DNA of 64,000 bases from NCBI GenBank assembly GCA_020638675.1, contig JACKID010000001.1, positions 1,518,225 to 1,582,224 on the forward strand, in the 5' to 3' direction. The first letter of the stretch is position 1. Each line of letters starts with the position of its first letter. Made by a program: the position numbers. Of this stretch, positions 52,801 to 55,800 are shown piece by piece. This DNA is from Planctomycetota bacterium (GTDB taxonomy: Bacteria > Planctomycetota > UBA8742 > UBA2392).

Positions 52801-55800
52801 GCGGGTGCTTCTGGGGCATGGAAGAGTTGCTGCGCGAGATCCCCGGCGTGATCGACACCGAGGTCGGCTACTGCGGGGGCGAGAACGCAGATGCCACGTA
52901 CAAGAACCACCCGGGCCACGCGGAGGTCGTGAGGATTACCTTCGACCCGTCGAAGCTCAGCCTCAAGACGCTGCTGGAAGACTGGTTCTTCCGCATGCAC
53001 AACCCGACGACGCTGAACCGCCAGGGCAACGACCGCGGCACCAGCTACCGCAGCGTGATCTTCTACGCGAACGACGAGCAGAAGAAGGTCGCCGAGCAGG
53101 CGATCAAGGACATCAACGACTCCGGCCATTGGGCCGACCCGATCGTCACCACCGTAGAGCCGGTCAAGAACTGGAGCACGGCCGAGGATTATCACCAGGA
53201 CTACCTGCAGAAGAATCCCAACGGCTACACCTGCCACTGGCTTCGCGAGTGGGACCCGGCAACGACGAACAAGAAGTAAGGTAGCGCGGGCGTCTAGCTC
53301 GCGACGGCAGAAAAAGCAACCCGCGGCCTGTGTCCGCGGGTTGTTCGTTTAGTTCCTGCGGACGGGGCGTCCGCGGTCCATTAGCTGCGTGAGCGAAGGT
53401 CGATGCGCGCGTCGGCCACGGAATCCATGGCGCGCAGGCGGTTCTTCAACTCGGTGAGCTTGTCGTTCGGCGAAAGCTCGAGCGTGCTGGCATGCGCCGG
53501 CGGGCGTCCCCACATCACGCGTGCGCCGGGCATGCGGGACTGGTCGGGGATCAGCACCACGCCGCCGTCCGGCTGGTAGTGTACCCGCCCGCGAGCATCG
53601 GCCTGCTGCGGCACACCGACTAGTTCGATTTCTTCAATCGGCATCGAACGGTCCAGCTCGGCCTGGCGGATGACGCGTTCCATCGAGAGCGCGGCGACGA
53701 TCTGCTCATTGATCCATTCATCGCCCGCGGCCGGCGCCGAGCCGACGACCCCGCGCACCATGCGAAGCGGGTGGGCAAGCTGGCTGGTGAACAGCGCGTA
53801 CTCGTCGCCGTCCTTCGGTACCGACAGCGGCAGGACCACGCCGTCGCCGTCGACCAGCACGTAGCGGTCCGCGGTGTCCACCACCACGGCCGGCGTGCGA
53901 ATCTCCAGTACGGGCAGAAAGCGCGAGTAGCCATCGGGATCGGTCGGGAAGCGGCGCTCGATGCGCAGCACGCTTCGCACCCACGGGCAGCGCTCCATGC
54001 GCTCCGTGATAGTGTCCATCAGGTCGTTGTCGAACGCGTTTGTTTCCGGCAAGTCGGCGAGGTCGGCGCGCAGGTCTTCCTCGATCTCGCCTTTGAGCTG
54101 CCTGGCGAGGTTGCCCTTGGCCCAGGTGGGGGATGCGGAAAGCTCAATGCGGCCCGGGTCGACGCGATAGCGCTCATCGTTGCGAAGATTGTGCAGCATC
54201 ACCCAGGACAGCAGCGATACCACAACCACGCCGCCGACCAGCCCGGCGCAGCGACGCACGCCCCGGCTGTGCCACGCGGCCGAGAAGAAGCCGCTGACGG
54301 TTTCGCCCGACGGCGTCACGGCCTGCACCAGCTTGGCGACGCCCGCGAACAACACGCCGAAGCCCGCCTTGATGGCGCGCATGGCAGTGCTGCGCGCGCG
54401 CAGGCGCGTAGGCTTGCTGCGGGTGACCTTCTTTGTTTTGCGGCGCGGCATGGCGTACTCCTAGGCTGCGAGGATGCGGGTAATGCGGTTGCTGACAGGC
54501 TTGCGGCGCTGCTCCATGCTTACGTCGACCAGTTCCTGCACCAGCTCGTCGAAGCCGATGCCTTCCTGCGCGGCCGCCTTCGGCAGCAGGCTGGTCTCTG
54601 TCATGCCGGGCAGCGTGTTGACCTCGAGCACCCACAGCTCGCCGTCGCCGTCCAGCATCATGTCGACGCGGCTGTAGCCGTGGCAGCGCAGCGCGTGATG
54701 TGCACGGCGCGCGTAGTGCTGCGCCATTTTTGCGGTCGGGCCGGGCAGATTCGGGTTGGTGTCGTAGCGGGTGCCGGCCGTCTTGTCGTACTTCGCCTTG
54801 AAGTCGTAGAAGCCGGTGGGGGCGATGACTTCGCAGACGGGCAGCGCGCGGTTGCCGACCACGCCGACGGTCAGCTCGCGCCCGACGATGCACTTTTCCA
54901 GCATCACGCGCGGCCCGAACTTGAACGCGCCGCCGAGTGCATCCGGTACTTCGTTCAGGCAGGTCACCTTGGTGACGCCCAGGCTGCTGCCCTGGTCGAT
55001 CGGCTTGACCACCAGCGGCCAGTTGATGCGGCGGGCCATGCGGCGCAGGCGGTAGTCGGCGTCGAATTCCTCCGCGACTTCGTAAGGCGCGGTGGGGACG
55101 CGGTGGGTAAGGAACTCGGCCTTGCTGAGCTCTTTGTCCATCGCGAGGCGGCTGGCGATCGGCCCGCTGCCGGAGTAGGGGATCTGCAGCTCTTCCAGGC
55201 GGCGCTGGACGGTGCCGTTCTCGCCCTCGCCGCCGTGCAGCGCGATGAAGGCGAAGTCGACCTTCTCATTTTCCAGCATGCCGATTTCGTCGGAGCCGAT
55301 GTCGAGCGGAAGCACGTGGTGGCCGATGCGCTCGAGCGCGGCCCAGACGGCCTCGCCGCTCTTGATGCTGACTTCGCGTTCGGAGGAAGTGCCACCGTAG
55401 AGGAGAGCAATACGCAACATGGTGATGTCCATTGTCGGAGAAAGCGGCGCCAAGGTGACGGCCGCGAAGGGGCTATCGGTAATAAGGAAGCGTGCGCTTT
55501 AGCAGAGTTTAGTGGCATCGCCTTCCAGGCGATGAGTTGCAGCGGCTTCAAGCCGCTGCAGGCGCCTGCTGGAAGCAGGCGCAACGCACTCGCTGGAAGC
55601 GAGTGCCACTAGAGTTTGACGTAGAGGCCGTCAAAGCGCAGCGCGAGGTTTGCGCGGCTGGTGGCGAAGCGCAGGGGCTCGCCGTAGACGTAGACGCCTT
55701 CGTAGCGCCCGCCGGTGATCTTGAAGCTGACGGTGAACTCGTGATCGGGCCAGAAGCCGTCCTCGAACATGATGTGCCCGAGCAGCGCGCCGTTGGGCGA

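What the first reader, a model, noticed from the sequence alone, without database searches (positions are those of the whole stretch)
55504..55617. 114-bp MITE/REP-like element of four consecutive perfect hairpins with TIR and a 7-bp direct repeat, between the PilZ gene and ddl
Four stem-loops (7, 9, 8 and 8 bp stems) follow each other with 3-nt spacers. The loops are ttcca, ttcaa, tggaa and tggaa, so the first two hairpins are reverse-complement relatives of the last two. The element is therefore itself palindromic. The ends carry an 8-bp inverted repeat (tagtggca / tgccacta) and identical AGAGTTT heptamers on both sides, consistent with a target-site duplication. It lies in the ddl 5' UTR on the transcribed strand, so it would also form a highly structured RNA that could act as an attenuator or stability element.
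Basis: seen in the sequence. Interest (0 to 1): 0.6.

Follow-up and report, generated by a model that had tools for sequence, protein, structure and literature searches.

The report
Cluster of four REP hairpin repeats
The four back-to-back hairpins are a cluster of ordinary REP repeats, small selfish DNA palindromes that a dedicated RAYT enzyme spreads around Planctomycetota genomes; here the cluster sits where related genomes have a transcription terminator.

Summary
Window 55512-55609 holds four perfect hairpins (8/10/9/9 bp, triloops TCC, TCA, GGA, GGA) arranged >><<, and nothing else like it occurs in the 64 kb. It is not a MITE and not a locus-specific riboswitch-like structure. Each hairpin is a canonical REP unit: a 5' GTGG or GTTG 'foot', a 7-10 bp stem and a conserved CT-TCC-AG loop.

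- **Family.** The same four-unit arrays occur at many unrelated loci in Planctomycetota and Verrucomicrobiota genomes and metagenomes.
- **Transposase link.** In five independent loci these arrays directly flank a REP-associated tyrosine transposase (RAYT) gene. One of them carries the window's exact 23-nt unit.
- **Structure.** Across copies, 21 of 36 stem pairs show compensatory double changes.
- **This locus.** Three related genomes (83-96% protein identity) lack the array at this site. Each has an intrinsic terminator there instead.
- **Direct repeat.** The 7-bp repeat is real but not a family trait: 25 of 28 arrays have no adjacent repeat of 5 bp or more. One copy is the last codons of the PilZ-like gene. 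The other begins a conserved box upstream of ddl.

Likely effect, inferred only: a 3'-UTR hairpin block acting as partial terminator and mRNA stabiliser. Verdict: a new member of a known kind, of low to moderate interest.

The parts
55512..55534 (+). REP unit 1: foot GTGG (55512-55515) plus hairpin CATCGCCT-TCC-AGGCGATG (55516-55534)
   Evidence: The exact 23-nt unit GTGGCATCGCCTTCCAGGCGATG is found in 33 metagenome contigs and flanks a RAYT gene in L098. Its reverse complement ends the arrays in L062, L068 and L024.
55536..55560 (+). REP unit 2: foot GTTG (55536-55539, overlapping the base of the stem) plus hairpin TGCAGCGGCT-TCA-AGCCGCTGCA (55538-55560)
   Evidence: The same stem and loop, CAGCGGCTTCAAGCCGCTG, is the second unit of the array in L019.
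55562..55585 (-). REP unit 3 (inverted): foot GTTG read on the minus strand (55585 to 55582) plus hairpin 55562-55582 (GCGCCTGCT-GGA-AGCAGGCGC on the plus strand)
   Evidence: Its foot and stem, GTTGCGCCTGC, are identical to the terminator hairpin at the orthologous place in L004.
55586..55609 (-). REP unit 4 (inverted): foot GTGG read on the minus strand (55609 to 55606) plus hairpin 55586-55606. The first G of the foot is the last base of the stop codon of the upstream gene.
   Evidence: Overlap of foot and stop codon recurs in other arrays.
55504..55510 (.). AGAGTTT, ddl-proximal copy. On the minus strand it reads AAACTCT, the start of the box AACTCnGCTAAAG.
   Evidence: The box is conserved in L001, L002 and L004, which lack the array.
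55611..55617 (.). AGAGTTT, gene-proximal copy. On the minus strand it reads AAA CTC T: codons K132 and L133 plus the first base of the TAG stop.
   Evidence: K132 and L133 are invariant in 26 homologues. Relatives use other synonymous codons.
55609..56010 (-). 133-aa PilZ-like gene, upstream of the array on the transcribed strand
   Evidence: ORF. Homologues occur only in Planctomycetota and always between murB and ddl. RxxxR and DxSxxG motifs are invariant. The predicted fold matches PilZ domains. There is no Pfam hit.
55421..55503 (-). Conserved ddl upstream region (GCTAAAG ... ATTACCGATAGCCCC ... CACC before the ATG). It is native sequence and not part of the repeat.
   Evidence: Alignment A3 of the window with L001, L002 and L004.
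54461..55420 (-). ddl (D-Ala-D-Ala ligase). Its ATG lies 91 nt downstream of the array.
   Evidence: The start agrees with the called genes in L002 and L004.

Best explanation
The element is a BIME-like cluster of four REP (repetitive extragenic palindromic) units in the order forward, forward, reverse, reverse. Each unit is a 5' foot (GTGG in the outer units, GTTG in the inner ones), a 7-10 bp stem of free sequence, and a conserved loop region CT-TCC-AG.

It belongs to a REP family spread through Planctomycetota and Verrucomicrobiota. The cognate enzyme is a class-2 RAYT (TnpA-REP), a single-domain HUH/Y1 nuclease.

**Inferred origin.** This step rests on what is known of E. coli TnpA-REP and IS200/IS605. 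The RAYT recognises the foot and hairpin on single-stranded DNA, then cuts and rejoins it. Arrays are thereby copied to new intergenic sites without a regular target-site duplication.

**At this locus.** The array arrived, or expanded, immediately after the stop codon of the PilZ-like gene in the dcw cluster. It occupies the place where relatives have a Rho-independent terminator.

**Inferred consequence (not shown).** On the mRNA the four U-tract-less hairpins would form a 3'-UTR block. That block would protect the upstream murC-murB-orf92-PilZ transcript from 3' exonucleases and only partly stop read-through into ddl-ftsQ, as shown for E. coli REP325. The array is most likely a tolerated selfish or commensal repeat rather than a purpose-built regulator.
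For: **Unit anatomy.**

**A dispersed family.**
- A genome scan with a foot plus two-loop pattern gave 72 loci. About half are hairpin arrays in Planctomycetota or Verrucomicrobiota genomes, several per genome.
- A covariance model built from 10 arrays gave 112 strand-hits at E <= 1e-3 in 335 kb of such loci.
- The exact 23-nt unit 1 occurs in 33 metagenome contigs, combined with different inner units.

**RAYT link.**
- The L044 ORF 2217-2807 matches Pfam Y1_Tnp above its cut-off and NCBIfam REP_Tyr_transpos at E = 9e-21.
- Its homologues are named 'REP element-mobilizing transposase RayT' by JGI.
- HuH, WQ, Tyr and Asn are invariant in an alignment that includes E. coli YafM. The only PDB relative is 4ER8, TnpArep.
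- This gene is flanked on both sides by four-hairpin arrays in L044, L078 and L079. In L080-82 it sits between a >> half and a << half. In L098 it is abutted by arrays.

**Hairpins are maintained across copies.** 89% of cells are paired, 21 of 36 pairs have changes on both sides, 0 of 500 shuffles reach the observed score, and slid controls give 25-40% paired. Very few G-U pairs occur, which fits a constraint on DNA or on both strands.

**Presence or absence at this site.** L001, L002 and L004 have no array at the orthologous site. Each has a terminator-like hairpin plus T-run there. The window has none.

**Literature.**
- The canonical REP is a GT[AG]G foot at the base of a hairpin, and REPs flank RAYT genes in a 'REPtron' arrangement (PMC6006769).
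- GTAG REPs, including GTGG variants and dimers 1-2 bp apart, are described in R. baltica and O. terrae (PMC3733652).
- REP325 acts as a partial Rho-dependent terminator and an upstream mRNA stabiliser (bioRxiv 10.64898/2026.03.23.713779).
Against: - The source genome is not available. No exact protein match was on record, it is absent from the genome scan, and the window-specific 33-mer gave 0 metagenome hits. Copy number and a RAYT gene in this very genome are therefore unshown. The 64-kb window has one array and no RAYT.
- The inner feet are GTTG, outside the GT[AG]G consensus.
- The RAYT's NCBIfam score (74.2 bits) is just under the curated cut-off of 80.
- The perfect 7-bp flanking repeat is improbable by chance (P about 0.2% for an adjacent repeat of 7 bp or more). 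It is not what an HUH nuclease is expected to leave.
- Unit 3 shares its foot and stem with the L004 terminator. Part of the array may therefore be old at this site rather than newly transposed.
- No transcript or mobility data exist, so the functional part is inference.
Confidence: 0.87

Rival explanations
1. A MITE: a deletion derivative of a DDE-type insertion sequence, bounded by the 8-bp TIR TAGTGGCA and inserted with a 7-bp target-site duplication AGAGTTT.
For: The TIR and the 7-bp direct repeat are real and directly abut the element (A|GTGG...CCAC|T). An adjacent repeat of 7 bp or more has P of about 0.2% by chance. Two other arrays, L095 and L098, have 5-bp adjacent repeats.
Against: - 24 of 28 arrays have no adjacent repeat of 3 bp or more, and the repeat lengths that do occur differ (5, 5 and 7 bp).
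- The TA extension of the TIR is absent from most copies.
- The only transposase found next to these arrays, five times, is a RAYT and not a DDE enzyme.
- Removing the element and one repeat copy would leave a gene ending KLC*, whereas all 26 homologues end KL*.
- Stems differ between copies through compensatory changes instead of being near-identical copies of a master element.
Confidence: 0.04
2. A locus-specific cis-regulatory RNA (attenuator or stability element of the dcw operon) that evolved in place, with the resemblance to repeats elsewhere being incidental.
For: It lies on the transcribed strand between two dcw genes and folds very stably. It occupies the position of the terminator seen in relatives. 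Unit 3 shares foot and stem with the L004 terminator.
Against: - It is absent in the closest relative, which has 96% protein identity, and in two others.
- The same architecture, and even identical units, occur at dozens of unrelated loci and around RAYT genes.
- No Rfam family matches at the gathering threshold.
- Both strands fit the family model equally well.
- G-U pairs are nearly absent, which is not what an RNA-only constraint would produce.
Confidence: 0.03
3. Same family, different origin: the array grew in place from an ancestral single REP-like terminator hairpin, by local duplication or RAYT-mediated addition of units, and was not inserted as a ready-made four-unit block.
For: L004 has GTTG + CGCCTGCC-TGC-GGCAGGCG + TTTT at the orthologous site. 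That is 11 nt identical to the foot and stem of window unit 3. Arrays elsewhere combine one identical outer unit with many different inner units, so units are added or exchanged modularly.
Against: The closest relative, L001, has an unrelated terminator hairpin with no foot. An 11-nt GC-rich match could be coincidence. The four units have different stems, so simple tandem duplication does not explain them.
Confidence: 0.1
4. A stack of four intrinsic (Rho-independent) terminators.
For: The hairpins are GC-rich and lie just after a stop codon, where relatives have a terminator.
Against: None of the four hairpins is followed by a T/U run on either strand, and the terminator scan finds nothing in 55300-56100.
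Confidence: 0.03

Closest known systems
GT[AG]G-footed REP elements and their RAYT/TnpA-REP 'REPtrons' (Nunvar 2010; Ton-Hoang/Messing 2012, PMC3479197; Di Nocera 2013, PMC3733652; Quentin 2018, PMC6006769)
   Same: - A 23-25 nt unit made of a 4-nt foot (GTGG or GTAG) and a short perfect hairpin with a 3-nt loop.
- Extragenic location just downstream of a coding region.
- Units grouped in inverted orientation only 1-3 bp apart.
- Sub-families that differ by complementary stem changes.
- A RAYT gene with HuH, WQ and Y---NP motifs flanked by the same units.
- GTGG variants and PVC-phylum hosts (R. baltica, O. terrae) are already described.
   Different: - The inner units carry GTTG feet.
- The strongly conserved part is the loop (CT-TCC-AG) and not the stem.
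- The recurrent module is four units (>><<) and not one or two.
- The host is an uncultured Planctomycetota lineage. I could not compare the family with the published consensus sequences, because Figure 1 of PMC3733652 is not held.
REPINs (REP doublets forming hairpins; Bertels & Rainey 2011, PMC3116915)
   Same: Inverted REP units form a non-autonomous module associated with a single-copy RAYT. The module looks like a REPtron with the RAYT gene removed (compare L080: >> RAYT <<).
   Different: A REPIN is two near-identical inverted REPs that pair with each other into one long hairpin. Here there are four units with different stems that each fold on their own, and only the 8-bp outer feet can pair with one another.
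E. coli BIMEs and REP325 as 3'-UTR regulators (Harris et al. 2026, bioRxiv 10.64898/2026.03.23.713779)
   Same: A mosaic cluster of REPs sits between two co-directional genes of an operon. No U-tract follows the hairpins. The expected dual action is partial termination plus protection of the upstream mRNA.
   Different: No expression data exist for this locus. The binding motifs for IHF or gyrase known from E. coli BIME linkers cannot be assessed here.
MITEs (for example Correia, ERIC or IS630-derived elements)
   Same: Small size (about 100 bp), terminal inverted repeat, intergenic and multi-copy.
   Different: There is no regular target-site duplication and no DDE-transposase parent. Copies are not near-identical, and the internal structure is four independent hairpins.

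Membership tests
REP (GT[AG]G-footed repetitive extragenic palindrome) | Short (20-40 bp) unit that forms a stem-loop | tested here: met
   Four units of 23-25 nt with perfect 8-10 bp stems and 3-nt loops. Pairing is kept by compensatory changes across 10 arrays.
REP (GT[AG]G-footed repetitive extragenic palindrome) | Unpaired 5' tetranucleotide foot GT[AG]G at the base of the hairpin | tested here: met
   The outer units carry GTGG (55512-55515, and 55609 to 55606 on the minus strand). The inner units carry GTTG, a deviation. Relatives carry GTGG or GTAG.
REP (GT[AG]G-footed repetitive extragenic palindrome) | Many dispersed copies within one genome | tested here: inconclusive
   **Related genomes: met.** At least 5 arrays lie in 16 kb sampled from JADJRK01, at least 3 in JAOSKM01 and at least 3 in JAIOJA01.

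**Source genome: not testable.** It is not in the collections, and the 64-kb window holds one copy.
REP (GT[AG]G-footed repetitive extragenic palindrome) | Cognate RAYT gene flanked by the same units (REPtron) | tested here: met
   Five independent loci: L044, L078, L079, L080-82 and L098. L098 carries the window's exact unit 1. No RAYT lies within the window itself.
REP (GT[AG]G-footed repetitive extragenic palindrome) | Extragenic position, mostly just downstream of coding regions | tested here: met
   The window array starts at the stop codon of the PilZ-like gene. Of 19 ORFs of at least 200 codons ending within 30 nt upstream of a footed unit, 16 end within 5 nt of the foot.
REPIN | Two inverted, near-identical REPs that pair into one long hairpin | tested here: not met
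   The inverted partners have different stems, and the minimum-energy fold is four separate hairpins closed by a short outer stem. The element is 66% identical to its own reverse complement.
MITE | Terminal inverted repeats | tested here: met
   TAGTGGCA / TGCCACTA. These are the feet and first stem bases of two inverted REP units, and the TA is not conserved in other copies.
MITE | Target-site duplication of fixed length at every copy | tested here: not met
   7 bp in the window. Among 28 arrays, 24 have none, one has 3 bp and two have 5 bp.
MITE | Derived from an autonomous IS that has the same ends and a DDE transposase | tested here: not met
   The only enzyme found between or next to such ends is a Y1/HUH RAYT.
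Intrinsic terminator | GC-rich hairpin followed directly by a U/T run | tested here: not met
   No site in window 55300-56100. The same scan finds such sites at the orthologous place in L001, L004 and L002.
Any Rfam RNA family | Score at or above the family's gathering threshold | tested here: not met
   No match in the window at the gathering threshold. The best sub-threshold match over the array is isrG at 20.7 bits against a threshold of 100.

The most novel reading that the evidence does not exclude
The four-unit >><< array, and not the single REP or the two-unit REPIN, may be the real mobile module of a PVC-wide RAYT clade. This clade would read the foot and the conserved CT-TCC-AG loop while leaving the stem sequence free, and it would place arrays right at stop codons, often donating the TAG. 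In this lineage such an array would then have replaced the intrinsic terminator between a c-di-GMP-receptor-like gene and ddl-ftsQ, re-wiring read-through inside the cell-wall/division operon.
Probability: 0.2. Interest if true: 0.45.

Novelty: new member of a known kind. Interest (0 to 1): 0.25.

Why it matters
Mostly it matters for housekeeping. It explains a striking structure as an ordinary genomic repeat, so annotators should mask it and not call it a riboswitch, an sRNA or a MITE.

It also gives a concrete, well-defined REP/RAYT system in poorly studied Planctomycetota and Verrucomicrobiota. The system has clean four-hairpin modules, five REPtrons and a working covariance model, and could be used to study how RAYTs recognise their substrates and choose sites next to stop codons.

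Finally, it is a natural example of a REP array standing in for a terminator inside the dcw operon. Strain-to-strain differences of this kind could tune ddl and ftsQ expression without touching coding sequence.

Tried and rejected
- **Rfam.** The gathering-threshold search of the whole window found nothing. An E-value search of 55350-55750 gave only meaningless sub-threshold hits.
- **Source genome look-ups.** Exact-protein look-ups for the PilZ-like and Ddl proteins found nothing on record.
- **Window-specific 33-mer.** The sequence spanning units 2-3 had 0 hits in metagenomes, so no conspecific contig and no recent identical copy was found.
- **Further copies in the window.** Hairpin scans and a filter-off covariance-model search found only the one array. 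The next best hit, 53277-53383 at 18 bits, lacks the family loops and vanishes with default filters.
- **Sigma-54 promoter idea.** I considered TGGCAC-N-TTCC in unit 4 and rejected it on reading the sequence. The spacing is one base short, the -12 GC is CC, and most family members have TGGCAT.
- **TA-duplicating (Tc1/IS630-like) MITE.** Rejected because most copies end CCACG, CCACA or CCACTC without TA.
- **Sigma-70 promoter scan.** Nothing was found in the ddl upstream region.
- **Published consensus sequences.** The REP consensus sequences of R. baltica and O. terrae (Figure 1 of PMC3733652) are not held as text. Assignment to a numbered GTAG family was therefore not possible.
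Full report
**1. The observation**

The sequence at 55504-55617 is exactly as described. Four perfect hairpins follow one another:
- 55516-55534: CATCGCCT-TCC-AGGCGATG
- 55538-55560: TGCAGCGGCT-TCA-AGCCGCTGCA
- 55562-55582: GCGCCTGCT-GGA-AGCAGGCGC
- 55586-55606: GCACTCGCT-GGA-AGCGAGTGC

Read to full length these are stems of 8, 10, 9 and 9 bp with 3-nt loops. TAGTGGCA / TGCCACTA occurs only at 55510-55517 and 55604-55611. AGAGTTT lies at 55504-55510 and 55611-55617.

The whole 64 kb has only 19 perfect hairpins of at least 8 bp. 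It has no other hairpin with these loops. Folding energies are far outside shuffled controls on both strands, with z = -7.4 and -7.95. The feature is real and not chance.

**2. Setting**

All genes here are on the minus strand, in this order:
- murC
- murB
- a 92-aa ORF
- a 133-aa ORF (55609-56010)
- the element
- ddl (54461-55420)
- ftsQ

Homologues of the 133-aa protein exist only in Planctomycetota MAGs and metagenomes. They are 60-96% identical, all are about 133 aa, and all end ...YVKL. They always sit between murB and ddl. The closest contig is from a bin labelled Planctomycetota_JADJRK01. The source genome itself is not in the collections.

**3. The same site in relatives**

L001 (96% protein identity), L002/L003 (86%) and L004/L005 (83%) have no such array. 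The family model finds nothing in them. Each has a different hairpin followed by a T-run, which is an intrinsic-terminator-like site, right after the 133-aa gene. The window has no such site.

Conservation resumes at a box AACTCnGCTAAAG and runs for about 90 nt to the ddl ATG in all four sequences (alignment A3). The array therefore occupies a variable spacer, in the place of a terminator. It is more likely the 3' UTR of the upstream gene than a ddl leader.

**4. It is one of a family**

Both halves of the element fit one pattern: TAGTGG, N5-7, CTTCCAG, N15-19, CTTCMAG. Scanning one genome per prokaryotic species gave 72 loci. Marking hairpins showed two groups:
- About half are chance matches in coding DNA, for example one Methanothrix gene found five times.
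- The rest are arrays of the same build in Planctomycetota and Verrucomicrobiota, often two or three loci per genome.

L068, L062 and L049 have the identical >><< layout. Many 8-kb loci carry a second or third array. Pirellulaceae carry head-to-tail runs of a 24-nt unit, GTGGGATAGGCTTCCAGCCTGTC.

A covariance model built from ten arrays (A2, R1) gave these results:
- The window array scores 115 bits on the plus strand and 108 bits on the minus strand.
- The window has no other convincing hit.
- It finds 112 strand-hits at E <= 1e-3 in 335 kb of PVC loci.

The exact unit 1, GTGGCATCGCCTTCCAGGCGATG, occurs in 33 metagenome contigs. Several come from the same samples, and the unit is joined to many different inner units.

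**5. The unit is a canonical REP**

Each hairpin is preceded by a 4-nt foot:
- GTGG in the outer units of the window, L044, L062, L068 and L079.
- GTAG in L078 and L080.
- GTTG, GTTC or GTAC in inner units.

[quoted passage not shown] Di Nocera et al. describe GTAG REPs with 6-9 bp stems and 2-3 nt loops, GTGG variants in Opitutus terrae, families in Rhodopirellula baltica, dimers only 1-2 bp apart, and sub-families differing by complementary stem changes (PMC3733652).

**6. The enzyme**

I ran a tblastn with RAYT sequences copied from that paper's supplement. It hit one locus, L044. The evidence that this 196-aa ORF is a RAYT is as follows:
- It matches Pfam Y1_Tnp at 27.4 bits, above the cut-off of 23.
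- It matches NCBIfam REP_Tyr_transpos at E = 9e-21 and 74.2 bits, just below the cut-off of 80.
- Its homologues are labelled RayT by JGI.
- HuH, WQ, the catalytic Tyr and Asn are invariant in an alignment that includes E. coli YafM.
- The only solved relative is 4ER8, TnpArep.

The gene is flanked on both sides by nearly identical four-hairpin arrays at L044 2097-2201 and 2817-2920. The same arrangement holds in other loci:
- L078 and L079, where homologues 71% and 66% identical are flanked by arrays.
- L080-82, where the gene sits between a >> half and a << half.
- L098, where a 52%-identical RAYT is abutted by arrays that begin with the window's exact unit 1.

That makes five independent REPtrons.

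**7. Structure conservation**

On alignment A2 the four helices are 89% paired. Of 36 pairs, 21 show changes on both sides. No shuffle of 500 reaches the observed covariation, and slid controls give 25-40% paired. G-U pairs are rare. This fits a constraint on DNA hairpins, or on both strands, as expected for a single-strand DNA nuclease substrate. The invariant parts are the foot, the first stem pairs (CA...TG) and the loop CT-TCC-AG.

**8. TIR and 'TSD'**

The 8-bp TIR is the foot plus the first two stem bases of two inverted units. The preceding TA is present in only a few copies.

I tested adjacent direct repeats on 28 non-redundant arrays with feet at both ends. Twenty-four have none, one has 3 bp, two have 5 bp (L095 and L098), and the window has 7 bp. 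From 200,000 pseudo-elements, P(5 bp or more) is 1.5% and P(7 bp or more) is 0.2%.

There is therefore no regular target-site duplication. Even so, 3 of 28 arrays with 5 bp or more exceeds the 0.4 expected, and I cannot explain that.

In the window, one copy is AAA CTC T: the invariant K132 and L133 plus the first base of the stop. Relatives use AAG CTG, AAG TTA or AAG TTG for these codons. The other copy is the start of the conserved box. Removing the element and one copy would give a protein ending KLC*, unlike all 26 homologues. One possibility is a microhomology-mediated deletion between the gene end and the box/array junction, which also removed the old terminator. This is speculation.

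One further detail. The L004 terminator reads GTTG-CGCCTGCC-TGC-GGCAGGCG-TTTT, and window unit 3 reads GTTG-CGCCTGC-TTCCA-GCAGGCG. The site may therefore have held a REP-like singlet before.

**9. Position relative to genes**

In the window the stop codon TAG shares its G with the foot GTGG. This is typical of the family. Among 19 ORFs of at least 200 codons that end within 30 nt upstream of a footed unit, 16 end within 5 nt of the foot. Several use the TAG of TAG|TGG or G|TAG as their stop. The binomial P is 3e-6 against a uniform spread.

**10. Mechanism**

*Shown:* the identity of the unit, family membership, the RAYT association in relatives, absence at the orthologous site, and the lack of a U-tract.

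*Inferred from established work on TnpA-REP and IS200/IS605 (PMC3479197, PMC6006769):* the RAYT recognises foot and hairpin on single-stranded DNA and cuts and rejoins it, spreading arrays without fixed duplications.

*Inferred from E. coli REP325 (bioRxiv 10.64898/2026.03.23.713779):* on the mRNA the array acts as a 3'-UTR block that stabilises the upstream transcript and only partly terminates transcription into ddl-ftsQ. I put about 0.87 on the identity and about 0.4 on this specific functional consequence.

**11. Verdict**

This is a REP cluster of a RAYT-associated family. That is a new member of a known kind, in an uncultured Planctomycetota lineage. Interest is low to moderate (0.25).

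The least ordinary aspects are the recurrent four-unit module, the loop-conserved and stem-free design, the habit of sitting on stop codons, and the replacement of a terminator inside the dcw operon.

Noticed in passing
window 55609-56010 (-): The 133-aa protein has no Pfam hit even at E <= 10. It does carry invariant RxxxR (R37-R41) and DxSxxG (D69-G74) motifs. Its AlphaFold model (pLDDT 69.5) matches PilZ domains best in the PDB (8u0i, 4i86, 5xly, 4rt1). A c-di-GMP-receptor-like gene is thus fixed inside the dcw cluster between murB and ddl in this Planctomycetota lineage.
   Followed up: partly
window 56088-56366 (-): A 92-aa ORF with no significant Pfam match (only a sub-threshold TylF match: E = 0.004, 16.9 bits against a cut-off of 23) is conserved in synteny between murB and the PilZ-like gene in L001, L002 and L004.
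   Followed up: no
window 55421-55503 (-): About 90 nt upstream of ddl is strongly conserved across four genomes (GCTAAAG ... ATTACCGATAGCCCC ... GGCGCCGCTTTCTCC ... CACCATG). No sigma-70-like match was found. It may be a ddl promoter of unknown type or a leader.
   Followed up: partly
window 55504-55510 and 55611-55617; L095 1930-2027; L098 7177-7273: Three of 28 arrays have adjacent direct repeats of 5-7 bp, where 0.4 would be expected by chance. The remaining 25 have no adjacent repeat of 5 bp or more (24 none, one of 3 bp). This is unexplained and may be an occasional microhomology-mediated event.
   Followed up: partly
L004 5425-5455 versus window 55562-55585: The terminator hairpin at the orthologous site in L004 shares 11 nt of foot and stem (GTTGCGCCTGC) with window REP unit 3. 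It has a different loop and a T-run.
   Followed up: partly
L062, L019, L095, L099, L072, L020, L050, L078 and others: REP arrays of this family usually begin within 5 nt of the stop codon of a long ORF. In several the TAG of TAGTGG or GTAG is itself the stop codon. In L062 both ends of the array abut convergent stop codons.
   Followed up: partly
L024 1990-2128 versus L068 6993-7101: These are orthologous arrays in two genomes. L024 carries a 30-nt insertion (cttgcccgcaGTAGcttcagcgaaggcggg) exactly inside the TGG^AA loop of hairpin 3, and the insert has its own GTAG and mini-hairpin. This may be nested insertion into a REP loop.
   Followed up: no
window 53277-53383: The spacer after ftsQ gives a weak model hit (18 bits, E about 0.007 with filters off, and none with default filters). 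It contains GTAG + CGCGGGC-GTCTA-GCTCGCG, an imperfect hairpin, and a bidirectional terminator-like hairpin at 53317-53343. It is not a family member by its loops.
   Followed up: partly
L055, L036, L037, L012, L028, L064 (Pirellulaceae): These loci carry head-to-tail tandem runs of a 24-nt unit, GTGGGATAGGCTTCCAGCCTGTC, whose stem has a T-G mismatch. The runs often close with one inverted unit. This is a different array style within the same unit family.
   Followed up: no
L088, L091, L092, L110, L111 (sample Ga0163144): Five contigs from one metagenome share the same left flank (acaacaccagttagcc) before unit 1, but different numbers of following units. This looks like strain variants or a larger repeated segment.
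   Followed up: no
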